From a virus (lineage: Duplodnaviria; Heunggongvirae; Uroviricota; Caudoviricetes): 14,373 bases of DNA. Below the pieces are notes generated by a model. That model saw nothing but the letters and a program-made list of their open reading frames with translations, ran no database searches and had not been told where the DNA came from. Position 1 is the stretch's first letter, and each line of letters begins with the position of its first letter. The stretch lies in IMG/VR virus record IMGVR_UViG_2541047837_000005, positions 1 through 14,373 of that record. One strand, given 5' to 3'. Of this stretch, positions 1-14,373 are shown in pieces. The position numbers were made by a program, and so were the translations under genes.

Positions 1-219
1 TTACATCCACATAATTTGCTGCCCTGACGGCAACGGGTGCGGCCTTACGGCGTGGACTTCTCCCGGCTTCACGATATATCGCTGTACCGACTCATAAGTG
101 ATGAATGTGGCGCTGCAATTCACGTTCTGACACTGGTGATAACGCTCTTTTGTCGTGTCAGTGATATAGCGACTTGTACGCGCATGTGCGGCATGCTGGC
201 ATAAAGGACAATGAAACAT
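1..219 (-). CDS. ogr: Ogr late-gene transcriptional activator, C4 zinc finger, 72 aa
   Basis: The 93-aa track ORF contains MFHCPLCQHAAHARTSRY...CQNVNC (Cys-x2-Cys-x22-Cys-x4-Cys) from the internal Met at 219; this matches the remembered P2 Ogr N-terminus and length. Stop is TAA at 1-3. Confidence 0.9.
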   Translation of the reverse strand: MFHCPLCQHAAHARTSRYITDTTKERYHQCQNVNCSATFITYESVQRYIVKPGEVHAVRPHPLPSGQQIMWM

Positions 220-253
220 CGCGAGCACCTCTTCCGGTTTTGTTGATGGTGCC

Positions 254-282
254 ATTTTAGTTAATTTATCCTTATAAAACAA
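254..282 (-). promoter_or_regulatory. Candidate sigma70 promoter for ogr (TTGTTT, 17-bp spacer, TAAAAT on the minus strand)
   Basis: Hexamers read by eye in the AT-rich leader upstream of the ogr ATG; no experimental or computational support. Confidence 0.25.
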
Positions 283-300
283 ACAGATAAAACAAAAACA

Positions 301-1263
301 TCACTCATCATCTTCTGTTTCGTACTCCACATCAGAAAGCCTGACCTCAAGCTCCAGGGACGTCGTGAAGCCGCTATTATTCAGAAAATGTGTCACCTTA
401 GTGATTGTCCAGTCCTGCTCGTCTATGACGCGCTTAAAGCCTGACACTTTAACCGGTGTTTCCGTGTAAATATCTGCCCGACCGGTAGCCAGGCTGATGG
501 AGAACTCCGCCACACCCCGTTGCAGTTTATCCCACTTCGCCTGAGCGGCGCGCATGGCCTGCGCTTTCGTGGCATATACCGTAGTCAGGGCAAAAACGTT
601 GTCAGCCTCACCGGCCATGTATTCACCTTCGCGCGCTTCCGGTACTTTAGGCGCTTTCTTCTGCCTGACCGGTTTCGCTTTCGGGTGCTCCAGTGCGCGC
701 AGGTGTTTCTCTTTCTTTTTGCGTTTCAGTTTTACCTTCTGCTTTTGTGGCTTCGGGTCTTTGGTGTGTAACCACTTTGCCGTTACGCCGGTATAGGCTC
801 CACGGTCAGCAATCGCAAAATGATGGCGGTCGCCGTCGCTGCGGGTTATGGTGACCTGCGGGATTTTTTTACCACTGGCCGTCACCCCCTGCCCCGCTTT
901 GAGAAACAACAGTTTTCCCATTTTTACCGACACCTCACCGCCGTTGCGTTCTGCAAGACGGGTCAGGAATTTCGCATCAGACTCCTGCGACTGGTCGATG
1001 TGCGGGATTTTAATTCCGGCCAGTGACGGAGCGACACTAGCTTCCAGCCTGTTAACGGCGCGTTTTGTCGCTTCCGGCCACTTTTCATCCCACCTGTCGA
1101 CCGAAAACGCCCACGCCAGCCACGGCAGCAGATTTGCCGGACAGGTGTCCGGGTTCCACAGTTCACGAATACTGACCGGCGTTTTTTCAATTTCCGCACA
1201 GGCTTTTGCGGCGGCAACTTCAAGCGGTGATGAGCCGGTCGGCAGCAGTCGCGAATCACTCAT
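301..1263 (-). CDS. Chimeric tail ORF: about 70 aa resembling the baseplate protein gpI N-terminus fused in frame to the C-terminal region of tail protein gpD (deletion remnant), 320 aa
   Basis: N-terminus MSDSRLLPTGSSPLE...LWNPDTCPANLLPWLAWAFSVDRWDEKW resembles the gpI family; remainder (IPHIDQ...TITRSDGDRHHFAIADR...LELEVRLSDVEYETEDDE) resembles the gpD C-terminus; length 320 aa versus about 387 for P2 gpD; lies directly upstream of ogr as D does in P2. Confidence 0.6.
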   Translation of the reverse strand: MSDSRLLPTGSSPLEVAAAKACAEIEKTPVSIRELWNPDTCPANLLPWLAWAFSVDRWDEKWPEATKRAVNRLEASVAPSLAGIKIPHIDQSQESDAKFLTRLAERNGGEVSVKMGKLLFLKAGQGVTASGKKIPQVTITRSDGDRHHFAIADRGAYTGVTAKWLHTKDPKPQKQKVKLKRKKKEKHLRALEHPKAKPVRQKKAPKVPEAREGEYMAGEADNVFALTTVYATKAQAMRAAQAKWDKLQRGVAEFSISLATGRADIYTETPVKVSGFKRVIDEQDWTITKVTHFLNNSGFTTSLELEVRLSDVEYETEDDE

Positions 1264-1406
1264 CCGAGCCCCCGGTCACGACGCGGTATTCGGTGCAGAA
1301 AGACGCCTGCGTACTGTTGAGCACAATGTCGGCCAAGCACCTTGCCGACAACAATCAGCACTCCAATCATGAAAAGCGACAGGACGCTTTTTTCTTCTGC
1401 TGTCAT
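1260..1406 (-). pseudogene. 48-aa remnant ORF: holin gpY-like N-terminus (MTAEEKSVLSLFMIGVLIVVGKVL) joined to a short tail that ends in an ATGA overlap with the next ORF
   Basis: Translated by hand from the minus strand (below the ORF-track size cutoff). GGGAG ribosome-binding site upstream of the ATG at 1406; hydrophobic helix typical of a holin N-terminus; TGA stop overlaps the ATG at 1263. Confidence 0.35.
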
Positions 1407-2662: not shown

Positions 2663-3736
2663 TTACGCTCCCGGCTCTGCGGTCGCCTTAGCCGGTGTGG
2701 AGAAATCACCGACCTTAATTTTTTCCACCAGACAACCGGCGGCGTAGTCTTCCACCACGTAATCAATGTTCATTGACTCGTAGTTCTCCACGCGGTCGAG
2801 TTTCGGGTTTTCCTCAATCACGCGGCGATGGCTGTCATCCATGTAGTAGATGGACAGGTTTTCCAGCTTCGTGATGAGCATCGCATCCGCCGGGAAGTAC
2901 GGGACGCGTACCGCCGGCAGGTTACCGATGCGTTTCTGGCTGATGATGACGTCAGCGGCCAGCATTTCGCTGTTGTCCTGCTCCTTGTTGACGATGGGGA
3001 AATATTTGTCCGCCAGCAGCTGACGCCCCACAATCACCACAAGGTCAGGGTCTTCCTGATACCACGGCTCAATCAGGTTGTTGGTCGCATCCATCACCAG
3101 TGCATCGAGGCTGGCATAATCACCGCTCTTACCCACGCGGATGACCTCAGAGGTGGTGTGCCCTTCCTCGTCAGTGACCTTGCTCATCACGCGCGCCGGG
3201 GCTTCATTGCGGTATTTCTGCAGCCAGCCGACCGCCACATCCTGCAGCATCGGATTGCTGCTGCGGTCAGAGGTTTCGGCACGCCTCACGCCGTTAAAAC
3301 CGGCCATGATGAAATCAAGGGACTGGCGTTTGATAATGGCGTTACGGACACGGAGCTGGAAATCCTGATAACGCGCCCACAGGTCCAGCGTTTTGTAGCG
3401 GATATAAAAATCGAAGTTAATCTGGTCGCATTCGTACTTGTTTGACGCCAGCTTCGAGAAGTCCTTCGGCTGACGCTCGGTGCCACCGGCGGTGTCGGTG
3501 GTGCTGGCGATGGAGCCGGTGACACCGATGCCAATTTTTTCCCCTTTCATTTCGCTGACCGGCACAATGTTGATGCGGGTCAGAAAGTCAGAGGACTCCT
3601 GCATGGTGTTCATCAGGGTCTGGGTGACCGACGGTTCAACGGTGAATTTTTTCGACACATCACCGGCGTCGATGCCGTTCAGTTCGGCAACACGGGACAG
3701 GTAAGCATTAAATTTAAAGCGGGTTTCCTGGCGCAT
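2663..3736 (-). CDS. N: Major capsid protein precursor gpN, 357 aa
   Basis: Full-length match in size and sequence character to P2 gpN (MRQETRFKFNAYLSRVAELNGIDAGDVSKKF...); AGGA ribosome-binding site upstream; follows O. Confidence 0.92.
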   Translation of the reverse strand: MRQETRFKFNAYLSRVAELNGIDAGDVSKKFTVEPSVTQTLMNTMQESSDFLTRINIVPVSEMKGEKIGIGVTGSIASTTDTAGGTERQPKDFSKLASNKYECDQINFDFYIRYKTLDLWARYQDFQLRVRNAIIKRQSLDFIMAGFNGVRRAETSDRSSNPMLQDVAVGWLQKYRNEAPARVMSKVTDEEGHTTSEVIRVGKSGDYASLDALVMDATNNLIEPWYQEDPDLVVIVGRQLLADKYFPIVNKEQDNSEMLAADVIISQKRIGNLPAVRVPYFPADAMLITKLENLSIYYMDDSHRRVIEENPKLDRVENYESMNIDYVVEDYAAGCLVEKIKVGDFSTPAKATAEPGA

Positions 3737-3794: not shown

Positions 3795-4649
3795 TCAGCA
3801 GTTCGTCATCAGGGCGTCACCGCCACCACCGGTGGCCTTGCTGCGGCGCTGCTGGGTCAGACTTTCGGTGTGGTCGAGACTGTTTTTCAGGCGGGTGAAT
3901 GCCTGGCTGGTTTCATCCGCCCTGTCAGTCACCTCCTGCTTAAGTGCGGAAAAGGCGGTTTCCATCTCAGAGAGGCGCTGCTCAGTGGCGCTCAGTTTTT
4001 CCTGCACATGTTCAGCAACAGCGGTCACCGCTTCATGCACGTCATTCAGACGGGCGTCATCGCTGGCCTGTTTGCGGCCAAAAATGGATTTCACCTTTTC
4101 GGTCAGGGCGGTGAACACGGTTTCAGGCAGGTCTTCAAATTCCAGCTCAACAGGCGTTGCCACTGAAATCAGGTTTTCAGGGCTTAATTTGAAGCGGTTC
4201 AGGGGGTTGTGTTTTGCCGTGCGGCAGAATTCCAGGTATTCCGTGCCGAGGCTTGCCGGGTCATCGGTGACGGCCAGCCCCACCAGATAACATTTGCCGG
4301 TATTGGCAAAGTTCGGCTGAATTTCCATTGAGGTGTAGACTTTCTGCGCGGCCTTGTTCATCGCGATAAGGTCATCGGTCGGGGTGATTTTCGCAAACAG
4401 CGCCCATTTGCCTTTCAGCGCCGAATCGTCGTCAATCTTTTCGGCCTTCAGTTCGACCACATCGCCATAACGTTTAAAAATACCGTCAGGCAGGATGCCG
4501 CGCAGATGTTCCAGGTTAATGCGGCAACCGTAGACACGCGGGTCAAAGGTTTCAGCCATTTCCTGAATATCCTGCGCACTGATGACACGCCCGTCACAGG
4601 TGTCACCCTCAACGCCGATACGAAAGAATTTTGAGACTTTTTTTGCCAT
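3795..4649 (-). CDS. O: Capsid scaffolding protein gpO, 284 aa
   Basis: MAKKVSKFFRIGVEGDTCDGRVISAQDIQEMAETFDP from the internal Met of the 306-aa track ORF; length equals P2 gpO; AGGA ribosome-binding site upstream. Confidence 0.88.
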   Translation of the reverse strand: MAKKVSKFFRIGVEGDTCDGRVISAQDIQEMAETFDPRVYGCRINLEHLRGILPDGIFKRYGDVVELKAEKIDDDSALKGKWALFAKITPTDDLIAMNKAAQKVYTSMEIQPNFANTGKCYLVGLAVTDDPASLGTEYLEFCRTAKHNPLNRFKLSPENLISVATPVELEFEDLPETVFTALTEKVKSIFGRKQASDDARLNDVHEAVTAVAEHVQEKLSATEQRLSEMETAFSALKQEVTDRADETSQAFTRLKNSLDHTESLTQQRRSKATGGGGDALMTNC

Positions 4650-4822
4650 TGTCAGGAGTCCTGAATAGTGATTAGAGGAGTCACATGTCGGCATCAGTTT
4701 CCCGACGATACGCATCCTCCGCCATCAGTCCCGGATGGCTTATCACTGACACAACAGCACCTTAGCGAATCGCGGGGCGCGACTCAGTAGCCTTGCCGTG
4801 TATTCATCACGGCGAGGTATTC
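4650..4822. promoter_or_regulatory. Divergent late-promoter region between O (minus) and P (plus); contains a 7-bp direct repeat AGGAGTC (4654-4660 and 4676-4682) and an inverted repeat CCGTG-N7-CACGG (4794-4812)
   Basis: Intergenic position between divergently oriented late operons, as in P2; repeats read by eye; no clear TGT-N12-ACA Ogr-type site found. Confidence 0.4.
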
Positions 4823-5560
4823 ATGACCATCACCACAGACACCACTCTTTTACACGACCCGCGTCGTCAGGCGGCGCTGCTGTACTGGCAGGGGTTTTCC
4901 GTGCCGCAGATTGCCGCCATGTTGCAGATGAAACGCCCGACGGTGCAGAGCTGGAAACAGCGCGACGGCTGGGACAGCGTTGCCCCCATCAGCCGTGTCG
5001 AAATGAGTCTGGAAGCGCGGCTGACCCAGCTCATCATCAAACCGCAGAAAACCGGCGGTGACTTCAAGGAAATTGACCTGCTGGGACGCCAGATTGAACG
5101 GCTGGCGCGGGTCAACCGCTACAGTCAGACCGGCAACGAGGCAGACCTTAATCCGAACGTCGCTAACCGCAACAAAGGCGGGCGTCGCAAACCGAAAAAG
5201 AATTTTTTCAGTGACGAGGCCATCGAAAAGCTGGAGCAGATTTTCTTTGAGCAGTCTTTCGACTATCAGTTGCACTGGTACACGCCGGAAATGAAAACCG
5301 CAATGGTGCTCAAGGCAAAAGACGTCATCCGCCGTGGCTGTCTGGAATACGACGTCAGCGCCACCGACATCACCAGCTCGTTTATGGCTATCCGCAAGAC
5401 CATGACCAGCAGCGGACGCAGTGCCACCTATGAGGCCAGCCGCAGCGAGGAAGCCAGCCACGCCGACCTCGCCTGGGCGACCATGCACGCCCTGTTAAAT
5501 GAGCCACTCACCGCCGGTATCAGCACCCCGCTGACATCCACCATTCTGGAGTTTTACTGA
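4823..5560 (+). CDS. P: Terminase large (ATPase) subunit gpP-like, internally shortened (245 aa versus about 590 in P2); no Walker A motif seen
   Basis: MTITTDTTLLHDPRRQAALLYWQGFSVPQIAAMLQMKRPTVQSWKQRDGWDS N-terminus after GAGG ribosome-binding site at the internal ATG 4823; stop TGA overlaps the Q ATG at 5560; no GxxxxGK[ST] in the translation. Confidence 0.7.
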   Translation: MTITTDTTLLHDPRRQAALLYWQGFSVPQIAAMLQMKRPTVQSWKQRDGWDSVAPISRVEMSLEARLTQLIIKPQKTGGDFKEIDLLGRQIERLARVNRYSQTGNEADLNPNVANRNKGGRRKPKKNFFSDEAIEKLEQIFFEQSFDYQLHWYTPEMKTAMVLKAKDVIRRGCLEYDVSATDITSSFMAIRKTMTSSGRSATYEASRSEEASHADLAWATMHALLNEPLTAGISTPLTSTILEFY

Positions 5561-6594
5561 TGAGCAAGAAAAAAGGGAAAACACCGCAACCTGCGGCAAA
5601 AAAAATGACCGCCAGCGCCCCGAAAATGGAGGCATTCACCTTTGGTGAGCCGGTGCCGGTACTCGACCGCCGTGACATTCTGGATTACGTCGAGTGCATC
5701 AGTAACGGCAGATGGTATGAGCCACCGGTCAGCTTTACCGGTCTGGCAAAAAGCCTGCGTGCTGCCGTGCATCACAGCTCACCGATTTACGTCAAACGTA
5801 ATATTCTGGCCTCGACATTTATCCCGCATCCGTGGCTTTCCCAGCAGGATTTCAGCCGCTTTGTGCTGGATTTTCTGGTGTTCGGTAATGCGTTTCTGGA
5901 AAAGCGTTACAGCACCACCGGTAAGGTCATCAGACTGGAAACCTCACCGGCAAAATATACCCGCCGAGGCGTGGAAGAGGATGTTTACTGGTGGGTGCCG
6001 TCCTTCCATGAGCCGACACCTTTCGCGCCCGGCTCCGTGTTTCACCTGCTGGAGCCGGATATTAATCAGGAGCTGTACGGCCTGCCGGAATATCTCAGCG
6101 CCCTTAACTCTGCCTGGCTGAATGAGTCGGCCACGCTGTTCCGCCGCAAGTATTACGAAAACGGCGCACATGCCGGATACATCATGTACGTCACCGATGC
6201 CGTGCAGGATCGCAACGATATCGAAATGCTCCGCGAAAACATGGTGAAGTCGAAAGGCCGCAACAACTTTAAAAATCTGTTTCTCTATGCCCCGCAAGGG
6301 AAAGCCGACGGCATTAAAATTATCCCGCTCAGTGAAGTGGCGACGAAGGACGATTTTTTTAATATCAAAAAAGCCAGCGCCGCTGACCTGCTGGACGCAC
6401 ACCGCATCCCCTTTCAGTTGATGGGCGGCAAGCCGGAGAACGTCGGGTCACTGGGAGATATTGAGAAAGTGGCAAAGGTCTTTGTCCGCAATGAGCTTAT
6501 CCCGTTACAGGACAGGATCCGCGAGATAAACGGCTGGCTCGGTCAGGAGGTCATCCGCTTTAAAAACTACTCACTGGACACTGACAACGGCTGA
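5560..6594 (+). CDS. Q: Portal protein gpQ, 344 aa
   Basis: Length and sequence character of P2 gpQ; translationally coupled to P; followed by a terminator and cos. Confidence 0.92.
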   Translation: MSKKKGKTPQPAAKKMTASAPKMEAFTFGEPVPVLDRRDILDYVECISNGRWYEPPVSFTGLAKSLRAAVHHSSPIYVKRNILASTFIPHPWLSQQDFSRFVLDFLVFGNAFLEKRYSTTGKVIRLETSPAKYTRRGVEEDVYWWVPSFHEPTPFAPGSVFHLLEPDINQELYGLPEYLSALNSAWLNESATLFRRKYYENGAHAGYIMYVTDAVQDRNDIEMLRENMVKSKGRNNFKNLFLYAPQGKADGIKIIPLSEVATKDDFFNIKKASAADLLDAHRIPFQLMGGKPENVGSLGDIEKVAKVFVRNELIPLQDRIREINGWLGQEVIRFKNYSLDTDNG

Positions 6595-6599
6595 ACATC

Positions 6600-6621
6600 G
6601 CCGCCTGCGGGCGGCTTTTTT
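6600..6621 (+). terminator. Rho-independent terminator after Q: GCCGCC-TGCG-GGCGGC stem-loop followed by TTTTTT
   Basis: Perfect 6-bp GC stem with 4-nt loop and a 6-T run immediately 3' of the Q stop codon. Confidence 0.6.
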
Positions 6622-6763
6622 ACAACCCGCCATCACGCCCTCACACGCTCACCACCGCACAAAACAGCCCGCATACACACCAACGCCCCGGCGAACAATC
6701 TAAACGCCATCACGACGCGCTCAGACGCTGAAAAAATAAAATCAGCACCACCGCCAGCGCGCA

Positions 6764-6782
6764 GTGCTTTCCCCGCCTCGCC
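6764..6782 (-). other. cos cohesive-end site (19-nt P2 cohesive end GGCGAGGCGGGGAAAGCAC, present as its reverse complement)
   Basis: Exact 19-mer GTGCTTTCCCCGCCTCGCC on the plus strand, about 170 bp beyond Q, where cos lies in P2. Confidence 0.75.
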
Positions 6783-6905
6783 CGCCCGCTTCATGGGTCG
6801 GTTTTAATGCAGGTGCATGACCACCATGGTGTCGCGCCTATTCTGACGGAGCACGATCTAAACTAGCAGCTCCAACGCATGCAAAACAATGCGCCTAATG
6901 CTTGC

Positions 6906-6918
6906 ACATCTGAAAATA
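6906..6918 (+). repeat. Left copy of imperfect 13-bp direct repeat ACATCTGAAAATA flanking the AT-rich cargo
   Basis: 12 of 13 match to 8879-8891 (ACACCTGAAAATA); located at the left edge of the AT-rich block. Confidence 0.3.
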
Positions 6919-7049
6919 AAAATCGTGTAGAAAGATATAGCAAAGTCTGCATATTAAAGCTGGCTGGCACGCAACTCATATCGCAGTGATTTGCCAATTA
7001 CATTGCGCAAAATTTACACTAACAACGGTTATCAAGAAGCAGGCGCAAA

Positions 7050-7060
7050 TTGATTATCAA
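7050..7060. promoter_or_regulatory. Palindrome TTGAT-T-ATCAA in the leader of the MBL-fold gene (candidate operator)
   Basis: Perfect 5-1-5 inverted repeat about 145 bp upstream of the ATG at 7205. Confidence 0.2.
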
Positions 7061-7126
7061 AAACTCGATCTAATCTATTGATCTAGACACGAATATTTAT
7101 GCATCCTGATATTGTTTTAAAGGTCT

Positions 7127-7142
7127 TTGATTGCCTAATCAA
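7127..7142. promoter_or_regulatory. Palindrome TTGATT-gcct-AATCAA in the leader of the MBL-fold gene (candidate operator overlapping a putative promoter)
   Basis: Perfect 6-bp arms with a 4-bp spacer about 65 bp upstream of the ATG; shares the TTGAT half-site with 7050-7060. Confidence 0.2.
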
Positions 7143-7204
7143 GTCCTGCACTACTTTGGCGTACAACACTTACATAAAGTTGAAAACTACAGAAGGGCAC
7201 AAGA

Positions 7205-8290
7205 ATGGGTTACGAAGTTGATTTCTTAGCAGTTGGAGAAAAAAAAAGTGGAGATGCTATCTGCATAAGATGGGGCAACCTCCACGGAACAAGAGCAGAG
7301 CAAAAAGTTGTCGTAATTGATGCGGGGTACGCAAGCACTGGTCCACAAATAATTGAACATTTACAGAAATACTATCATACAAATACTATTGACTTACTCA
7401 TATCCACGCATCCAGATAGCGACCATGCTGGCGGCCTTGAGCATGTGATTGAGAATGCGGAAGTCAAAGAGTTCTGGATTCACCAACCTTGGGAGCATAA
7501 TGAAAATCTCGCGCAGGAATTTGCTGATGGAAGGATAACAGATGCAAGTATTGCCAGACGTATACAAGATAATCTACAAAAAGCCTATGATGCCGTCAAA
7601 TCAGCGAAAAAAAAAGGAATAGAAATTAAGGAGCCTTTTCAAGGCAGGACTTGGGACAATTCTAAACTGGTTGTTATTGGACCAACACAAGCATACTATG
7701 AAACATTAATCCCCGATTTTGCAAGAATGCCTGAAAAAGCAGAAACAACTGCAACCAGTGGTACAGATGCATATAACTACTTTTTTGAGAAAGCCAAAGA
7801 ACAAGTCGAGTATATTGCTGATTGGTTCTCTGATGAGGGAATTGATGACAAGGACACAACTACTGCACAAAACAATTCAAGCGTTATATTAAAAATTGAA
7901 ATTGACAATAAAACACTAGTATTTACAGGTGATGCAGGAATAACTGCATTAGATATGGCTGCTGATCATATAAATAATAACTCATTATCATTTATTCAAG
8001 TGCCCCACCATGGAAGCAGGAGAAACATCGGTCCAGCGGTGCTAAATAAGCTCGTTGGAAATATTGTAAGCGAAGGAGGAAGAAGTGGTGTTTGTGCATT
8101 TATATCATGCGCACCGGATTCCGATAAACACCCTCATCAAGCGGTCATTAATGCTTTTACAAGGCGTGGAGCCAAAGTAGTCGCCACAGAAGGCACCAAT
8201 AAACGCCATTCTAGTAATGCCCCCGCCAGAGATGGCTGGACTGCAGTCACCCCACGCTCATACGCAAGGAGTTATAAGACTGAAGAATAA
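7205..8290 (+). CDS. Metallo-beta-lactamase-fold hydrolase, ComEC/Rec2-like nuclease-type domain, 361 aa; cargo gene
   Basis: Motifs AVGEKKSGDAICI...VVVIDAGY, STHPDSDHAGG (His69/Asp71/Asp73/His74), LVFTGDAG, VPHHGS, and C-terminal HPH...VATEGTN, typical of ComEC-type MBL domains; about 35% GC in sampled lines; GAAGGG ribosome-binding site; position of old in P2. Confidence 0.75.
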   Translation: MGYEVDFLAVGEKKSGDAICIRWGNLHGTRAEQKVVVIDAGYASTGPQIIEHLQKYYHTNTIDLLISTHPDSDHAGGLEHVIENAEVKEFWIHQPWEHNENLAQEFADGRITDASIARRIQDNLQKAYDAVKSAKKKGIEIKEPFQGRTWDNSKLVVIGPTQAYYETLIPDFARMPEKAETTATSGTDAYNYFFEKAKEQVEYIADWFSDEGIDDKDTTTAQNNSSVILKIEIDNKTLVFTGDAGITALDMAADHINNNSLSFIQVPHHGSRRNIGPAVLNKLVGNIVSEGGRSGVCAFISCAPDSDKHPHQAVINAFTRRGAKVVATEGTNKRHSSNAPARDGWTAVTPRSYARSYKTEE

Positions 8291-8295
8291 TTCGT

Positions 8296-8317
8296 TAAGC
8301 TGCCTTAGGGCAGCTTA
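8296..8317. terminator. Hairpin TAAGCTGCC-TTAG-GGCAGCTTA between the convergent cargo genes (candidate bidirectional terminator)
   Basis: Perfect 9-bp stem with 4-nt loop starting 6 nt after the MBL gene stop, AT-rich on both sides; the stop codon of the minus-strand gene lies in the loop. Confidence 0.5.
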
Positions 8318-8793
8318 TTATTAGCCTTACTCACTCTTAATGTAATAAACTTAATTTGCTTAACGTACGACACAATAAAAACAAAAATCAAAAACAATGA
8401 AATCCATTTCGACGCCATGTAATCACCACCAACTACAAACGAAACAAAAAACAAAGAAAACAAAAAAACCAAGGACATAGAGAATAACGTCCTATACATA
8501 TTTGCAGTTTCTTGAAGAAGCTCTATTTTATTATCCTTTCTACATGCTGAGATATATTCCTCATATGGAACAAATTTTACCAGCCCCAAAAATTTCAACA
8601 CAGGCTCAAAAACAATAGACCCAATCCTTCCGATAATTATCCCCGTAAAATAGTAAAGTACCACATTCTTAACAACATCATCTGTGGATAATATCACATT
8701 GGTTGCCCGCTCAAACAAATAAATAAATAAAGCACCGGGAAAGAGATTGTTAAATATATTATAAGACGATATTTTTTCCCATAAACCATCCAT
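8305..8793 (-). CDS. Small multi-pass membrane protein of unknown function, 162 aa; cargo gene
   Basis: Three to four hydrophobic stretches (GALFIYLF; VVLYYFTGIIIGRIGSIVFEPVL; LFSMSLVFLFSLFFVSFVVGG; WISLFLIFVFIVSYV); ATG at 8793 with AAAGGTG ribosome-binding site (the track ORF starts at an upstream GTG); AT-rich. Confidence 0.65.
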   Translation of the reverse strand: MDGLWEKISSYNIFNNLFPGALFIYLFERATNVILSTDDVVKNVVLYYFTGIIIGRIGSIVFEPVLKFLGLVKFVPYEEYISACRKDNKIELLQETANMYRTLFSMSLVFLFSLFFVSFVVGGDYMASKWISLFLIFVFIVSYVKQIKFITLRVSKANNKLP

Positions 8794-8878
8794 ACAACAC
8801 ACCTTTTAACCAATTTTAAAGACGCCATTTTCATCAAAAGAAACAAAAATAGCAAGAACATCAGAACAAACTCTTTGA

Positions 8879-8891
8879 ACACCTGAAAATA
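8879..8891 (+). repeat. Right copy of imperfect 13-bp direct repeat ACACCTGAAAATA flanking the AT-rich cargo
   Basis: 12 of 13 match to 6906-6918; about 90 bp upstream of the membrane-protein start. Confidence 0.3.
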
Positions 8892-8908
8892 TTATGTTCC
8901 GACACCAT

Positions 8909-9061
8909 TCATTTTGTAAAAGCAGAATATCCCAAACACACATCGATTGTAGGATATATAAACGTCTTCCTGCCATATGTTATGGTAGCCCCTCGCGCCA
9001 GCGCCTCAAGCTCCCATCGCTGCGGCCTGATACCGTTCTGAGCAAGGTCAACGCGGATACT
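8909..9061 (-). pseudogene. Possible out-of-frame C-terminal remnant of replication gene A (...IRVDLAQNGIRPQRWELEALARGATITYG...)
   Basis: ORF in a different frame continues directly past the A stop (9048) to 8909 with GC content like the P2 core; assignment to the A C-terminus is from imperfect memory. Confidence 0.3.
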
Positions 9062-10766
9062 CGTTAACGTCATCCGACGGGCTACGGGCGACTCTGACAG
9101 TCTGACAATCGCGCGGAACATTTGCCCCACCCTGCGCGCTGATATACAACGCAAAATCACCACTGTCTGCGGCGGCGCGTGCAGCCTCGACGCGCTCGTC
9201 AAACTCATCAGCAATGCTGACGCCGCGAGGCAATTTGCGTAGTTCACGGTAAGCCCCCATTGTCGGCAGGCCAACCGTTTTAAATTGCGGAATGCGCCAC
9301 GTTGACGCCCATGCGGTAACAGCCGCGGCAGTATCTTTCAGCGGTCTGCCGGTATCGTTATCGAGCTGCCCATCCAGTGCATAGCCGTCGATATTTTTTG
9401 AGATGTATTTCGCGATATACCCCGCAGCACCGCCCCGGTTAAGATGTTTTGCCTGAAAACGGTTTCGCGCGGCTCCTCTTTCGTCGCCATCCTCTTTGAG
9501 CGCATAGCGACGCATGATTTCGATAATCTGGTTACGCTGGCGTGGATTACAAAAAAGCATCATATGCCAGTGCGGCGTTCCGTCGTGGTGTGGCTCGACG
9601 ACACGCAAACCGTAGGCCTGTAAATCATTATCCTTGAATGCCGTGCGCATCAGGCTCCAGATACGGCAGAGATAACGCTGCGCATCCTTTGGATTAAATG
9701 CCTCATCGTTCCAGCCGTGATTAAGCTGAACGGTTTTACTTTCGCCTTTTCCGACCTGACGTGTCGGGTGATACTTTGACGGCGCGGTCAGCGTGATAAA
9801 CATCCCCACATCACCCTCTGCAGCGGCGTAACGCTCAATACCGGCAATGGTGTTCATCAGCTCCATCCGGCGAATTTCAGGATTAGAAATACTGCCCATC
9901 ACCTTACTGATAAGGTCGATGCGCTCGCCGGTTTCCTTATTTTCAAGGTCACACGATTTAAGAAATTCCAGATTTGCCTGGCGGCGTGCACGCACATCAC
10001 GAATGGCATGTTTACTGGCATAAGGAGAACGGTCTTTATTGACCTCCCCGACAGCAATCAGTAACGCCTCATGCCAGCGCATACGCTGGCCTTTAAGCTG
10101 ATGAGTCCACCACTCATCGTTAAACAGACGGGCAATGGCAGAATATGCCTGCCTCGTGGTCATCTGCCCTTTACGGTATTTTTTCCAGTAGAGAGGGGAA
10201 ATATTGAAAGCTCGTGCAGCGCCAGCAACATGACCATACAGGTGAGCCTGCGCCTCATCCGTAAACAGCGATTCTTTCTCGCCATGCGCATCCACCCAGG
10301 CATCGCAGAGTTCCTCATACATCATGAAAAGCTGTGATGAGATACGGGCGGCAAACTTTTTCAGCTCCTTGTCATTCATTCCAGGCAAACGCGCATAATG
10401 GTCACGCTCTGCCAGAAACAGCAACGACGCGTCGGTGTTCATTTCATGGCGCTGATTCACACGCTCAATGCGCGGCCATAAACGACGCTGAAAAGTGGAT
10501 GTGAGGAAATAAAACCCGTGCACCGGGCTTTTATTGCGCCGGATGTAGTCATAGCGTGAAGTAAACAGCGAGCGCAAAAAGTAAGGCAGGCGATTAATCG
10601 TGGATAAAACACCTTGCACCTGACGCATCTCGTCACGTGTAAGGGGTCTTTCGCGCCCGACGGCCTCGCGTGGCGCGTTCCATGCATAAGCACCGGTAAA
10701 CGTCTCACCGGTGCCTGCGGCAAATGCTGACGGAGGGACAAAACGCCCGGAGGCTTTAACGGCCAT
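9048..10766 (-). CDS. A: Rolling-circle replication initiator gpA, C-terminally truncated (572 aa from the ATG versus about 761 in P2)
   Basis: MAVKASGRFVPPSAFAAGTG start at the internal ATG 10766 (the track ORF begins at an upstream TTG); HWHMM metal-binding motif and GYIAKYISK active-site tyrosine pair present; ends abruptly ...SDDVNEYPR. Confidence 0.85.
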   Translation of the reverse strand: MAVKASGRFVPPSAFAAGTGETFTGAYAWNAPREAVGRERPLTRDEMRQVQGVLSTINRLPYFLRSLFTSRYDYIRRNKSPVHGFYFLTSTFQRRLWPRIERVNQRHEMNTDASLLFLAERDHYARLPGMNDKELKKFAARISSQLFMMYEELCDAWVDAHGEKESLFTDEAQAHLYGHVAGAARAFNISPLYWKKYRKGQMTTRQAYSAIARLFNDEWWTHQLKGQRMRWHEALLIAVGEVNKDRSPYASKHAIRDVRARRQANLEFLKSCDLENKETGERIDLISKVMGSISNPEIRRMELMNTIAGIERYAAAEGDVGMFITLTAPSKYHPTRQVGKGESKTVQLNHGWNDEAFNPKDAQRYLCRIWSLMRTAFKDNDLQAYGLRVVEPHHDGTPHWHMMLFCNPRQRNQIIEIMRRYALKEDGDERGAARNRFQAKHLNRGGAAGYIAKYISKNIDGYALDGQLDNDTGRPLKDTAAAVTAWASTWRIPQFKTVGLPTMGAYRELRKLPRGVSIADEFDERVEAARAAADSGDFALYISAQGGANVPRDCQTVRVARSPSDDVNEYPR

Positions 10767-11031
10767 ATGAGCCAAAAGCCTCTGAACAACGCTTGCTGAG
10801 TTGCTCAACCTGCGCGTTTAAATCAGCAAAAGACTTTGCGCTTCCGGTCAGAATATCGTGATGCATCAGGCCGGAAACGAGCTGGCTTAATTTCGGGTAA
10901 TAACCAACCACCGCCAGCCATTCCTGACCGGCGTTTTTACCGCTTTCCGCTCTCTTTTTCTCGTGGAGAATAAACTGAAAGCTGTCACTGGTAACGACAT
11001 AACGTTCGCCAATTTCAATACGAATACTCAT
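10756..11031 (-). CDS. Hypothetical early-operon protein, 91 aa (P2 orf83-like by position)
   Basis: ATG with GGAG ribosome-binding site 8 nt upstream; overlaps the A start by 11 nt; between the zinc-finger ORF and A. Confidence 0.55.
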   Translation of the reverse strand: MSIRIEIGERYVVTSDSFQFILHEKKRAESGKNAGQEWLAVVGYYPKLSQLVSGLMHHDILTGSAKSFADLNAQVEQLSKRCSEAFGSYGR

Positions 11032-13377: not shown

Positions 13378-14373
13378 ATGTCTATTAAAAAGCTCGATGA
13401 TGGTCGTTATGAAGTGGACGTCAGACCGCAGGGTGCAGATGGAAAACGTATCAGGCGGAAATTTAAAACTAAAGGTGAAGCTCAAGCATTCGAACGTCAT
13501 GTACTGGTTAACTACCACAACAAAGAGTGGTTGGAGAAACCAGCCGACCGCCGAACTCTTACAGAGTTGTTAGGCAGATGGTGGATATATCACGGAAAAT
13601 CACATGAGCGTGGAGATATTGAACGGGGGCGTTTAACGACAATAATCGCCAAATTTGCAGAAATGGGAGTGTCCAGAGCTGACCAGCTAACAAAGAAAAC
13701 GATAACTGATTATCGCGTTGTAATGATGAACGATGGTCTGAAACCAGCCAGCGTAAATCGACATCTGGCAATAATGAGCGGGATGTTCACCAAGTTAATT
13801 GACGCCGGTGAATACCACTCTCACAACCCGTTCCGTGAGATTAAACGGTTACGTGAAGCTGTTACGGAAATGGCTTTTTTGTCCAGTGAAGAGATTACGC
13901 GGCTGTTATCCATGCTTGATGGTGATGAATTAAATGCAACTCTGGTCTGCCTTTCTACTGGTGGACGCTGGAGTGAAGTGTCTAATTTAAAAGCTGAACA
14001 CATCATTAACCAGATGGTTACGTTTATGAAAACTAAAAACGGAAAACGCAGGACAATTCCCGTTTCGCAGGACCTGATTAAACGGATCAAGACCAAAAAT
14101 TCAGGCAGGCTTTTTAATGCCAGTTACTACAAAGTGCGTAACGCTCTCAGGGAAGTAAAACCCGATTTACCTGACGGACAAGCAGTACATGTTTTGAGGC
14201 ATACATTTGCCACACATTTTATAATGAATGGAGGTAACATAATCACATTGCAGCGCATCCTGGGTCATTCTAACATTCAGCAAACTATGACCTACGCACA
14301 CTTTGCACCGGATTTCTTACAAGATGCTGTGACTCTTAACCCGGTGTCAGGAATGTCCATAATGCGTCCATAA
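13378..14373 (+). CDS. int: Tyrosine integrase (P2 Int family), 331 aa
   Basis: N-terminus MSIKKLDDGRYEVDVRP; catalytic signature TGGRWSE, HVLRHTFATHF, GHSNIQQTMTYAHF; GGAGGG ribosome-binding site; TAA stop is the last codon of the window. Confidence 0.92.
   Translation: MSIKKLDDGRYEVDVRPQGADGKRIRRKFKTKGEAQAFERHVLVNYHNKEWLEKPADRRTLTELLGRWWIYHGKSHERGDIERGRLTTIIAKFAEMGVSRADQLTKKTITDYRVVMMNDGLKPASVNRHLAIMSGMFTKLIDAGEYHSHNPFREIKRLREAVTEMAFLSSEEITRLLSMLDGDELNATLVCLSTGGRWSEVSNLKAEHIINQMVTFMKTKNGKRRTIPVSQDLIKRIKTKNSGRLFNASYYKVRNALREVKPDLPDGQAVHVLRHTFATHFIMNGGNIITLQRILGHSNIQQTMTYAHFAPDFLQDAVTLNPVSGMSIMRP

What the first reader, a model, noticed from the sequence alone, without database searches (positions are those of the whole stretch)
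6880..8900. AT-rich two-gene cargo at the cos-proximal old/tin-equivalent hotspot: candidate uncharacterised anti-phage module
The interval between cos and replication gene A is where P2 carries old and tin, and published surveys (Rousset et al. 2022) describe it as a variable hotspot for defence genes in P2-like prophages. Here neither old nor tin is recognisable. Instead there are two convergent genes unrelated to the P2 core, with clearly lower GC (about 35% in lines I counted versus roughly 55-60% in the capsid genes), their own AT-rich leaders and a hairpin between them. The rest of the prophage is decayed while this cargo is intact, which is consistent with selection for the cargo.
Basis: partly seen in the sequence, partly recalled or inferred. 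Interest (0 to 1): 0.85.

Follow-up and report, generated by a model that had tools for sequence, protein, structure and literature searches.

The report
Membrane-partnered MBL nuclease module in P2 hotspot
A decayed P2-like prophage carries, at its known defence hotspot next to cos, an intact pair of genes (a ComEC-like metallo-β-lactamase-fold nuclease and a small four-helix membrane protein). The pair is already listed as the untested anti-phage candidate PDC-M48, and it looks like a membrane-controlled relative of the protease-gated defence nucleases.

Summary
Between the exact P2 cos 19-mer (6764-6782) and a truncated replication gene A (9048-10808) lies a ~2 kb cargo of 38% GC (~6919-8966). 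It holds two convergent intact genes, a 361-aa MBL-fold protein (7205-8290, +) and a 162-aa four-helix membrane protein (8793-8305, -), separated by a conserved 9-bp hairpin.

The cargo is a good anti-phage candidate but is already catalogued. Both proteins match PADLOC candidate PDC-M48 over their full length. The same two accessions appear as untested P2-hotspot content in Rousset et al. 2022.

The MBL protein is closest to the ComEC nuclease domain and to the MBL nucleases of Avs1, Lamassu, DRT and Hachiman. It keeps all metal-binding motifs. It has extra segments at the positions of the auto-inhibitory loops of those protease-gated pronucleases, but no protease gene accompanies it.

In 63 of 76 species loci the MBL gene sits beside a small multi-TM gene (controls 29/196). 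The partners fall into three unrelated families; the window's type is the rare one.

Best reading (~0.5): a cytoplasmic DNase effector controlled by a membrane sensor or anchor. I found no experimental test. I rate it a new variant of a known kind, of moderate interest.

The parts
5560..6594 (+). P2 portal gene Q (344 aa), the left flank of the hotspot
   Evidence: phrog_68 portal protein, E 4e-176; corresponds to 'phage portal protein' in L001
6764..6782 (-). P2 cos cohesive-end 19-mer
   Evidence: Exact single match, 0 in 200 shuffles; the 19-mer itself is recalled from memory of P2 biology
6919..7204 (+). AT-rich leader of the MBL gene (GC 0.367), with a promoter-like site at 7084-7113 and GAAGGG upstream of the ATG
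   Evidence: Homology with the second E. coli allele ends at 6918; promoter-like match 9/12, not above chance for the region; sequence read
7205..8290 (+). ComEC-like MBL-fold metallo-hydrolase, 361 aa (PADLOC PDC-M48B; identical to the E. coli 361-aa cluster P0001 and to the RefSeq CDS WP_021533447); predicted DNase
   Evidence: PDC-M48B E 6.4e-99; LmuA-labelled model 5.6e-28; RTasMBL 3.9e-21; Avs1a 1.3e-15. Pfam Lactamase_B 2.4e-13. AF2 pLDDT 91.4. Best PDB fold match is the ComEC beta-lactamase-like domain 9ic4, E 2.4e-14. Motif residues D17, H69, D71, D73, H74, D243, H268, H269 invariant in 61 sequences. No nucleotide differences from the L001 gene
8296..8317 (.). Hairpin between the convergent genes (9-bp stem, 4-nt loop); probable bidirectional terminator
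   Evidence: Inverted repeat, 100% complementary; -18 kcal/mol, z -3.4; stem kept with compensatory changes in L008 and L090
8305..8793 (-). Small inner-membrane protein, 162 aa, four long helices (PADLOC PDC-M48A; WP_021533448)
   Evidence: PDC-M48A E 6.8e-49, full length; no Pfam or NCBIfam family; AF2 pLDDT 89.6 with helices 10-31, 40-68, 77-86, 89-120, 126-157; no meaningful PDB fold match; 12 invariant residues in 62 sequences
8794..8966 (-). AT-rich leader of the membrane-protein gene (GC ~0.34), with a promoter-like site at 8920-8891
   Evidence: TTTACA-18-CATAAT, 10/12, the best match in the region; homology with the second allele resumes at 8967
9048..10808 (-). Replication gene A, truncated (586 aa against 759 aa) by a 422-bp deletion at ~9060; the right flank of the hotspot
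   Evidence: phrog_91 'nicking at origin of replication', E 5.6e-287, covering profile positions 5-587 of 852; deletion mapped against L001

Best explanation
The cargo is a two-gene anti-phage module carried as a moron in the P2 Q-A hotspot.

Gene B encodes a cytoplasmic ComEC-type MBL metallo-nuclease. It comes from the same lineage as the auto-inhibited ('gated') DNase effectors of Hachiman-HamM, Avs1, Lamassu/ABC-3C and DRT systems.

Gene A encodes a small N-in/C-in four-helix inner-membrane protein. It takes the place that a trypsin-like protease-sensor fusion holds in those systems.

Proposed mechanism (inferred, not shown). The membrane protein holds or regulates the nuclease at the cytoplasmic face of the membrane. 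A membrane-associated cue of infection, such as genome injection or envelope perturbation, relieves the inhibition. The nuclease then degrades DNA, either locally on the incoming genome or generally as abortive infection.

Shown here: the fold, intact catalytic motifs, homology to defence MBL nucleases, extra segments at the positions of the gating loops, conserved pairing with small membrane proteins, mobile-element and defence-island context, and purifying selection.

Inferred: DNase activity, which protein senses and which acts, the trigger, and anti-phage activity itself.
For: 1. Location. The module lies in the experimentally established P2 defence hotspot between Q/cos and A. An identical MBL protein, with an adjacent convergent 162-aa ORF, is carried by Peduovirus P24E6b. 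An identical MBL protein is also in Escherichia phages D8, 11W and 12W.

2. Database match. Both proteins match the PADLOC candidate PDC-M48 over their full length.

3. MBL identity.
- The high-confidence model (pLDDT 91.4) is closest to the ComEC nuclease domain (9ic4, E 2.4e-14, TM-score 0.75 on the target length).
- Sequence profiles rank defence-associated MBLs (5.6e-28 to 1.3e-15) above ComEC (TIGR00361, 6.8e-14).
- Metal-binding motifs are invariant in 61 homologues down to 47% identity.

4. Link to gated pronucleases.
- A profile alignment to the MBL of an ABC-3C operon on Shewanella plasmid pS19501 runs unbroken through residues 13-282 (E 2.4e-12).
- There are ~150 residues between the HxHxDH-type motif and the NNSS motif, against ~64 in ComEC.
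- The model's only disordered stretch is 182-194. This lies at the position of the 184-203 inhibitory loop of trypsin-activated MBL; the other reported loop is 107-129. Those MBLs are DNases.

5. Pairing.
- 63 of 76 species loci have a small multi-TM ORF beside the MBL gene, against 29 of 196 control genes (Fisher p = 3e-26). In 58 loci it is downstream on the same strand; gaps in the downstream listing are mostly -4 to +12 bp.
- The window's membrane family (T1) was next to a defence-clade MBL protein in all six distinct contexts examined, whatever the gene order or orientation.

6. Context. Immediate neighbours are heterogeneous and rich in type I restriction-modification subunits, helicases, integrases, resolvases and DruE. 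No protease or other third gene is conserved.

7. Constraint. pN 0.14 against pS 0.75 for the MBL gene, and dN/dS 0.17 for the membrane gene.

8. Precedent. In Kiwa, a membrane sensor is coupled to a cytoplasmic effector (PMC11785009).
Against: - No phage-challenge data were found for this pair or for PDC-M48. PADLOC's PDC systems are explicitly untested.
- The direction of signalling is not established. Small membrane proteins in defence systems are usually assumed to be effectors (Rousset et al.).
- Insertion 1 is a well-folded, highly conserved helical pair (pLDDT 94-98), not a floppy loop. It may be a substrate- or partner-binding element rather than a gate.
- I could not inspect model coordinates, so I could not test whether the active site is occluded.
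- Loop 2 has no conserved cleavage motif, and no protease is linked.
- The second-best fold match is the phosphorylcholine esterase Pce, so a non-DNA phosphodiester substrate is not excluded.
- In E. coli the two genes are convergent with separate promoters, which is unusual for an obligate complex.
Confidence: 0.5

Rival explanations
1. Reversed roles. The MBL enzyme is the sensor or trigger: it acts on a phage nucleic acid or small molecule, or is modified on infection. The membrane protein is the effector that permeabilises or depolarises the inner membrane (abortive infection), as with the TM effectors of CBASS, Pycsar, retron and Hailong-type systems.
For: Rousset et al. note that TM proteins in known systems are believed to be suicide effectors. 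In L094 the same membrane family sits beside a 6A-MBL-like operon. There the MBL protein occupies the place of the conjugated 'signalling enzyme' of type II CBASS and Pycsar, systems whose effectors are often membrane proteins (my knowledge). Three unrelated membrane families are interchangeable with one MBL family, as effectors often are.
Against: The nearest characterised relatives of the MBL protein are themselves the killing DNases. The membrane family has 12 invariant, mostly polar or glycine residues that by topology lie at the cytoplasmic helix ends (inference). That looks more like a specific interaction or catalytic surface than a generic pore. There was no significant holin or pore-family match (Phage_holin_2, E 0.051, below cut-off).
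Confidence: 0.17
2. The pair is not a defence system. It is a selfish maintenance or addiction module (toxic nuclease plus protective membrane partner), or another accessory function that travels with mobile elements and stabilises the prophage.
For: The pair is found on prophages, plasmids and a Tn7-like element. The nuclease is probably toxic if deregulated (analogy with the 'pre-cut' HamM). The cargo persists in a defective prophage.
Against: Its position at the P2 defence hotspot, its embedding next to type I restriction-modification systems and its membership of a defence-nuclease lineage fit immunity better. Many toxin-antitoxin-like modules are themselves abortive-infection systems, so this rival overlaps the main reading. 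Convergent transcription is atypical for toxin-antitoxin pairs.
Confidence: 0.12
3. An envelope-modifying lysogenic-conversion function. The MBL protein is a phosphodiesterase acting on a lipid, LPS or teichoic-type head group (Pce-like), together with a membrane partner, changing the cell surface or receptor availability.
For: The second-best structural matches are the pneumococcal phosphorylcholine esterase Pce/CbpE (E 3.7e-10 to 1.1e-9). The partner is an integral membrane protein.
Against: The MBL protein has no signal peptide; its N-terminus is the first beta-strand of the fold, so it is cytoplasmic. The ComEC nuclease domain is a better match than Pce. The related trypsin-associated MBL was tested and had no choline-esterase or beta-lactamase activity, only DNase activity.
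Confidence: 0.05
4. A DNA-uptake (competence) function, as the RefSeq product name 'ComEC/Rec2 family competence protein' suggests.
For: Sequence and fold similarity to the C-terminal nuclease domain of ComEC.
Against: Only the MBL domain is present. TIGR00361 scores 50.9 bits against a cut-off of 190, over two short stretches. Pfam gives no Competence or DUF4131 domain. The partner has no similarity to the ComEC channel. The module is prophage cargo in a species that is not naturally competent through ComEC-dependent prophage genes (my knowledge).
Confidence: 0.02

Closest known systems
PADLOC phage defence candidate PDC-M48 (Payne et al. 2024, bioRxiv 10.1101/2024.01.29.577857)
   Same: Both window proteins match the A and B component models over their full length (6.8e-49 and 6.4e-99) and are adjacent. 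This is the same entity.
   Different: PDC-M48 is only a computational prediction and is untested. Its A models cover only the 162-180-aa membrane family. Here most MBL homologues (57 of 68 clustered downstream partners) pair with two other membrane families of ~210 and ~240 aa that PADLOC and Pfam do not recognise.
Trypsin-MBL / HamM 'gated pronuclease' cassette of Hachiman, Avs1, Lamassu/ABC-3C and DRT (Tuck et al. 2025, PMC12799240; Huang et al. 2025, bioRxiv 10.1101/2025.09.03.673762)
   Same: Homologous ComEC-like MBL nuclease of ~350-370 aa. Extra segments relative to ComEC lie at the same two positions. The profile alignment is unbroken across them, including an S-I-G/A motif aligned with TSIGQG of an ABC-3C-associated MBL. 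Both are encoded by a separate gene next to their regulator.
   Different: There is no trypsin-like or caspase protease and no helicase, STAND or ABC sensor. The partner is a small membrane protein. Loop 2 has no conserved KSS or IS(G)N cleavage motif. Insertion 1 is predicted to be folded.
ComEC/Rec2 C-terminal nuclease domain (PDB 9ic4, 30bt)
   Same: Best structural match. It shares the STHPDxDH, NNxS, GD and PHHGS motifs.
   Different: The window protein is stand-alone and cytoplasmic and lacks the OB-fold and channel domains. It carries ~85 extra residues between the motifs, sits in a mobile-element context, and scores far below the family cut-off.
Kiwa (KwaA membrane sensor plus KwaB cytoplasmic effector; PMC11785009)
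   Same: The architecture is analogous: a small multi-pass membrane protein paired with a soluble cytoplasmic effector. Kiwa senses phage-induced membrane changes.
   Different: There is no sequence relationship; no Kwa models were hit in PADLOC. The effector here is a different fold (MBL).
Rst_Hydrolase-3Tm (HAD-like hydrolase plus TM protein; Rousset et al. 2022)
   Same: A two-gene 'hydrolase plus membrane protein' module from the P2/P4 hotspots.
   Different: That hydrolase is HAD-like, not MBL, and the system comes from P4. No PADLOC hit to it was returned. My initial guess from memory that the two were the same was wrong.
6A-MBL system (E2-E1-JAB 'cap2_3' plus MBL; van den Berg et al. 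2024, cited)
   Same: It uses a related MBL protein. In one locus (L094) the window's membrane family lies next to a 6A-MBL-like operon.
   Different: The window MBL protein scores 33.8 bits against a cut-off of 220 for NF058524. No E2-E1-JAB gene is present in the window.

Membership tests
PADLOC PDC-M48 | Protein matching the PDC-M48B (MBL) models | tested here: met
   PDLC04676, E 6.4e-99, residues 3-355 on profile positions 5-353 of 357
PADLOC PDC-M48 | Protein matching the PDC-M48A (membrane) models, encoded adjacent to B | tested here: met
   PDLC04670, E 6.8e-49, positions 1-162 of 164; the genes are 14 bp apart and convergent
PADLOC PDC-M48 | Anti-phage activity | not testable with these tools
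   PDC systems are described as untested; no paper in the library mentions PDC-M48
Protease-gated MBL pronuclease cassette (trypsin-MBL / HamM) | ComEC-like MBL fold with intact metal-binding motifs | tested here: met
   hits to the LmuA-labelled, RTasMBL and Avs1a MBL models
Protease-gated MBL pronuclease cassette (trypsin-MBL / HamM) | Two insertions relative to ComEC that occlude the catalytic pocket | tested here: inconclusive
   Extra segments are present at the same positions and align with an ABC-3C-associated MBL. The disordered loop 182-194 lies at the position of the reported 184-203 loop.
Protease-gated MBL pronuclease cassette (trypsin-MBL / HamM) | Adjacent gene encoding a trypsin-like (or caspase) protease fused to a sensor | tested here: not met
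   The partner is a 162-aa membrane protein with no protease family hit. No protease recurs among 136 immediate neighbours of homologues.
Protease-gated MBL pronuclease cassette (trypsin-MBL / HamM) | Conserved cleavage motifs (KSS or IS(G)N) in both loops | tested here: not met
   Loop 1 has an invariant S115 followed by I/L/V116 and G/A/S117. Loop 2 (177-206) is variable with no conserved motif.
ComEC/Rec2 competence protein (RefSeq product name) | Full ComEC architecture (OB/DUF4131, Competence channel, MBL) at or above the family score | tested here: not met
   TIGR00361 scores 50.9 bits against a cut-off of 190.05; PRK11539 scores 27.7 against 969. Pfam finds only Lactamase_B.
P2 old / tin exclusion genes | Homology to Old (ATPase-TOPRIM nuclease) or Tin | tested here: not met
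   No old or tin model appears among the PADLOC hits of either protein
6A-MBL system | MBL equivalog NF058524 at or above 220 bits, plus an E2-E1-JAB cap2_3 gene | tested here: not met
   33.8 bits; no such gene in the window
Rst_Hydrolase-3Tm | HAD-like hydrolase paired with a TM protein | tested here: not met
   The hydrolase here is MBL-fold. The paper describes a HAD-like hydrolase from P4.
Kiwa | KwaA and KwaB homologues | tested here: not met
   No Kwa models among the PADLOC hits; the resemblance is in architecture only

The most novel reading that the evidence does not exclude
The small membrane proteins (three unrelated families) may be a previously unrecognised class of activators for gated MBL nucleases. 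On this reading they couple an event at the inner membrane (phage genome entry or envelope damage) directly to opening of the nuclease, without the dedicated protease that every characterised member of this nuclease lineage needs. The conserved cytoplasm-facing polar cluster of the T1 family (S9/S10, Y11, N15, R56, S59, R101, S142, K145, Q146) would then be either the docking site or an unconventional juxtamembrane Ser/Lys-type catalytic site that processes the nuclease.
Probability: 0.2. Interest if true: 0.7.

Novelty: new variant of a known kind. Interest (0 to 1): 0.5.

Why it matters
If the module is active, it adds a protease-independent way of controlling the widespread ComEC-like defence DNases. 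It would also be another example, alongside Kiwa and Zorya, of immunity triggered from the membrane.

It can be tested directly in E. coli. An identical MBL gene is carried by the sequenced Peduoviruses P24E6b, D8, 11W and 12W, and P24E6b has the same convergent pair. The locus is only ~2 kb with its own promoters.

The comparative result is the new content here: one MBL family paired with three unrelated small membrane families in at least 63 species across many phyla, only one of which current defence-finding models capture. Annotation tools probably under-call this system.

The finding is not a discovery of an unknown locus. PADLOC and Rousset et al. had already flagged it.

Tried and rejected
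1. My first guess from memory was that this was Rst_Hydrolase-3Tm. Rejected: that hydrolase is HAD-like and from P4, and PADLOC returned no such hit.

2. The NCBIfam hit to the '6A-MBL' anti-phage system was followed up. It is a ubiquitin-like E2-E1-JAB system, and the hit covers only the metal-motif stretch at 33.8 bits against 220. The window module is not a member.

3. Homology between the window's membrane family (T1) and the two commoner partner families was tested by profile-profile comparison. T1 against T2a gave E 0.012 over 20 columns, and T1 against T2b gave E 0.062, so neither is significant. T2a against T2b was marginal (E 3.5e-4, probability 37%).

5. Holin reading: Phage_holin_2 at E 0.051 and 14 bits against a cut-off of 32. 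Not significant.

6. An Rfam scan of 6500-9200 found nothing above noise (STnc410, E 0.76, 18 bits against 50).

7. Promoter-like sites are no more frequent than in shuffled sequence, so 'own promoters' remains plausible but unproven.

8. Literature searches for any experimental test of PDC-M48 or of an MBL plus TM system found none: Rousset 2022 and its Table S2, Vassallo 2022, Payne 2024, the cold-seep PDC tests, the domain-centric screen and the 2026 P2/P4 preprint.

9. I tried to read the model coordinates to test active-site occlusion. They are not exposed to the scripting environment.


Full report
**1. What is in the window**

The window is a defective P2-like (Peduovirus) prophage of E. 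coli.

PHROG and RefSeq comparisons identify these genes:
- head completion gene L (1613-2182, -)
- a shortened terminase small-subunit gene M (2222-2659, -)
- capsid gene N (2663-3736, -)
- scaffold gene O (3795-4715, -)
- a shortened terminase large-subunit gene P (4793-5560, +)
- portal gene Q (5560-6594, +)
- a shortened replication gene A (9048-10808, -)
- the early region, and an integrase gene that starts at 13378 and runs off the window's end at 14373

The P2 cohesive-end 19-mer occurs exactly once, at 6764-6782.

Against the intact prophage of strain EFF60 (L001), the window is 98-100% identical but carries four lesions:
- 304 bp missing in M
- about 1025 bp missing in P
- 422 bp missing in A (a frameshift, giving 586 instead of 759 aa)
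- everything left of ~1330 (from within the holin gene onward) replaced by a tail-fibre fragment

**2. The cargo**

Between cos and A lies a low-GC segment. Sliding-window GC is 0.33-0.44, against 0.51-0.62 in the structural genes. The segment 6919-8990 is 0.378, against 0.557 to the left and 0.474 to the right.

Comparison with a diverged second E. coli allele (L090) sets the boundaries. Homology is continuous up to 6918. The module itself (7203-8858) is 72% identical. Flank homology resumes at 8967.

The cargo holds two convergent genes:
- 7205-8290 (+), 361 aa
- 8793-8305 (-), 162 aa, starting from an ATG preceded by AAGGTG

A 9-bp perfect hairpin (8296-8304 / 8309-8317) sits between the stop codons. 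Its predicted energy is -18 kcal/mol, z = -3.4. In Huaxiibacter (L008) the stem is kept through compensatory changes (GAACTGCCC/GGGCAGTTC), which argues that it is a functional bidirectional terminator.

Promoter-like hexamers lie ~90 bp upstream of each gene, but the region has no excess of such matches. No Rfam family is present.

**3. The locus is already catalogued**

Both proteins match the PADLOC candidate system PDC-M48 over their full length: B at 6.4e-99 and A at 6.8e-49. PDC systems are 145 'guilt-by-embedding' predictions that the authors describe as untested. No paper in the library mentions PDC-M48.

The RefSeq proteins of this pair (WP_021533447 + WP_021533448) are listed as 'hypothetical + Lactamase_B' in Table S5 of Rousset et al. 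2022, the catalogue of P2 Q-A hotspot contents. They are absent from that paper's table of tested systems.

The cargo is present in 22 of 5,426 complete E. coli genomes. A 100% identical MBL protein is encoded by Peduovirus P24E6b and by Escherichia phages D8, 11W and 12W. P24E6b carries the same convergent pair.

A second allele (75% amino-acid identity for MBL, 63% for the membrane protein) occupies the same hotspot with the same convergent layout, plus an extra 145-aa gene.

**4. The MBL protein**

Pfam sees only Lactamase_B. The AlphaFold model is confident (pLDDT 91.4). Its only disordered stretch is residues 182-194.

The best solved-structure match is the beta-lactamase-like nuclease domain of ComEC (9ic4: Foldseek E 2.4e-14, TM-score 0.75 on the target; phmmer 2.2e-7). 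The phosphorylcholine esterase Pce comes next.

In 61 homologues down to 47% identity, the metal-site residues are invariant: D17, H69-P-D71-x-D73-H74, D243, H268-H269, and N223-N224.

Profile scores rank defence-associated MBLs above ComEC itself:
- PADLOC 'LmuA'-labelled model, 5.6e-28
- RTasMBL, 3.9e-21
- Avs1a, 1.3e-15
- ComEC TIGR00361, 6.8e-14, far below its cut-off

Those defence MBLs have recently been shown to be DNA-specific nucleases held inactive by two inserted loops over the catalytic pocket. Reported positions are 107-129 and 184-203, with cleavage at I118 and I218 in the long form. A neighbouring trypsin-like protease domain, fused to a Hachiman, Avs, Lamassu or ABC sensor, cleaves the loops and releases the activity.

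The window protein has ~150 residues between the HxHxDH-type motif and the NNSS motif, where ComEC has ~64. A profile alignment to the MBL of an ABC-3C operon on Shewanella plasmid pS19501 (L088) runs unbroken through these extra segments (residues 13-282, E 2.4e-12). In that alignment, the family's invariant S115-I/L116-G/A117 aligns with TSIGQG of the plasmid MBL.

Insertion 1 (about residues 94-139) is highly conserved and predicted to be helical. The loop of insertion 2 (177-206) is variable and disordered.

I conclude that the protein belongs to the lineage of gated defence DNases.

**5. The membrane protein**

The 162-aa protein has no Pfam or NCBIfam family. Some RefSeq records call it 'phosphohistidine phosphatase', for which I found no support.

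Its model (pLDDT 89.6) has four long helices (10-31, 40-68, 89-120, 126-157) and a short one (77-86). There is no informative fold match.

Twelve residues are invariant across 62 homologues that reach into Firmicutes: Y11, N15, P19, G20, Y48, G51, R56, G58, S59, R101, K145 and Q146.

By the positive-inside rule, which I applied by hand, the topology is N-in/C-in. These conserved motifs then all lie at the cytoplasmic helix ends, facing the compartment that holds the MBL protein. This is inference.

**6. The pairing is the conserved feature**

A scan of one genome per species found 268 relatives of the MBL protein. Eighty loci were retrieved, spanning Proteobacteria, Bacteroidota, Acidobacteriota, Planctomycetota, Actinomycetota, candidate phyla and an archaeal MAG.

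In 63 of 76 evaluable loci, a 140-290-aa multi-TM ORF lies within 300 bp of the MBL gene, against 29 of 196 control genes in the same loci (Fisher p = 3e-26). In 58 loci it is immediately downstream on the same strand; gaps in the downstream listing are mostly -4 to +12 bp. Several of the apparent exceptions carry variants, such as a divergent upstream partner in Acinetobacter or a second MBL paralogue followed by a TM gene.

Clustering of the 68 downstream partners shows three families:
- about 210 aa, 29 loci
- about 240 aa, 28 loci
- the window's 162-aa type; the cluster has 6 members: the window, the two E. coli relatives L001 and L002, and 3 of the scanned species loci

The 162-aa type is not detectably related to the other two. 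Those two are only marginally related to each other. PADLOC and Pfam do not recognise them.

The association also holds in reverse. The 162-aa family was next to a defence-clade MBL protein in every context examined:
- convergent in Enterobacteriaceae
- upstream and overlapping in Faecalibacillus
- upstream, directly after a type I restriction-modification operon, in L092
- downstream of a 320-aa MBL protein in L093 and L095
- convergent with a 6A-MBL-like E2-E1-JAB + MBL operon in L094

Immediate neighbours of the pair are heterogeneous: 123 Pfam families among 136 proteins. They are rich in type I specificity subunits, ResIII, UvrD and SNF2 helicases, methylases, integrases, resolvases, DruE and MoxR-VWA. 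No recurrent protease or third gene appears.

The pair therefore behaves as a self-contained two-gene cassette of defence islands and mobile elements.

Both genes are under purifying selection between the two E. coli alleles. For MBL, pN is 0.137 against a saturated pS of 0.754. For the membrane gene, dN/dS is about 0.17.

**7. Mechanism**

The best-supported reading (about 0.5) is a membrane-coupled nuclease defence. The MBL protein is the DNase effector, and the small membrane protein is its sensor, anchor or regulator, standing where the protease-sensor fusion stands in related systems. Kiwa is a precedent for a membrane sensor coupled to a cytoplasmic effector. Zorya is another, from my own knowledge.

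The main rival (about 0.17) reverses the roles, with the membrane protein as the suicide effector. That is the usual assumption for TM components, and the L094 context hints at it.

Lesser rivals:
- an addiction module (0.12)
- a Pce-like envelope phosphodiesterase (0.05). The related trypsin-associated MBL was assayed and lacked esterase and beta-lactamase activity.
- competence (0.02), which the domain architecture excludes

**8. Verdict**

The cargo is a sound anti-phage candidate at the right hotspot, but it is not unrecognised. The 'intact cargo implies selection' argument is weak, because the prophage decay is recent.

I classify it as a new variant of a known kind: the ComEC-like defence-nuclease lineage with a membrane partner instead of a protease.

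Interest is moderate (0.5). The locus is already flagged in two public resources. No test has been reported, the membrane partnership is mechanistically unexplained, most partner types are invisible to current defence finders, and the system can be tested directly in E. coli.

Noticed in passing
window 1-1330, ~2406, ~5288, ~9060: The prophage is defective through four lesions relative to intact relatives. There are deletions of 304 bp (M), ~1025 bp (P) and 422 bp (A), with alignment overlaps (shared bases) of 2, 10 and 3 bp at the junctions. A left breakpoint inside the holin gene joins to a chimeric tail-fibre ORF (301-1263). None of the 5,426 complete E. coli genomes searched shares the deletion in A.
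   Followed up: partly
window 7205-8290 and 8305-8793: The public names are misleading. RefSeq calls the MBL protein 'ComEC/Rec2 family competence protein', and some records call the membrane protein 'phosphohistidine phosphatase'. PHROGs places the MBL protein in a 'tail protein' family (phrog_7043), and NC_049389 annotates it as a tail protein. None of these names is supported by the domain evidence.
   Followed up: partly
L094:5001-8756: A homologue of the window's membrane protein lies convergent with a near-member of the validated 6A-MBL system (E2-E1-JAB 'cap2_3' at 283 bits against a cut-off of 320; MBL at 215 bits against 220). The membrane protein may therefore be an unrecognised third component of some 6A-MBL operons.
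   Followed up: partly
L090:2200-2637 and L091:2200-2637: The second E. coli allele of the module carries an extra upstream 145-aa gene (WP_001752367). It has no Pfam family and no remnant in the window. This is the 'hypothetical + hypothetical + Lactamase_B' entry of Rousset's Table S5.
   Followed up: partly
L064:1270-4056, L072:6989-9749: Some loci have a three-gene form: a 371-aa MBL gene, then a second ~300-aa MBL paralogue (PDC-M48B model PDLC04673), then a ~235-aa membrane protein.
   Followed up: no
L003-L004 and L009-L086 (most loci): The two commonest membrane-partner families (~210 aa and ~240 aa) have two N-terminal and two C-terminal hydrophobic helices around an ~80-100-aa soluble middle domain. 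That domain has conserved motifs (for example LPGHRF, DPRID, WY..IYRP, AHK.FLLYRD). They have no Pfam or PADLOC model.
   Followed up: partly
L005:6916-7962: In Faecalibacillus the membrane gene plus MBL pair is preceded by a DUF4365 protein with a weak PADLOC hit to an Aga REase-type model (E 8e-9). This may be a three-gene variant or simply a neighbouring defence gene.
   Followed up: no
L004:9959-17092: In Microbulbifer the pair sits between a type I restriction-modification operon and a Metallophos + YjiT-like + YjiV-like (DEAD helicase/MZB) gene set, which looks like a further candidate defence cluster.
   Followed up: no
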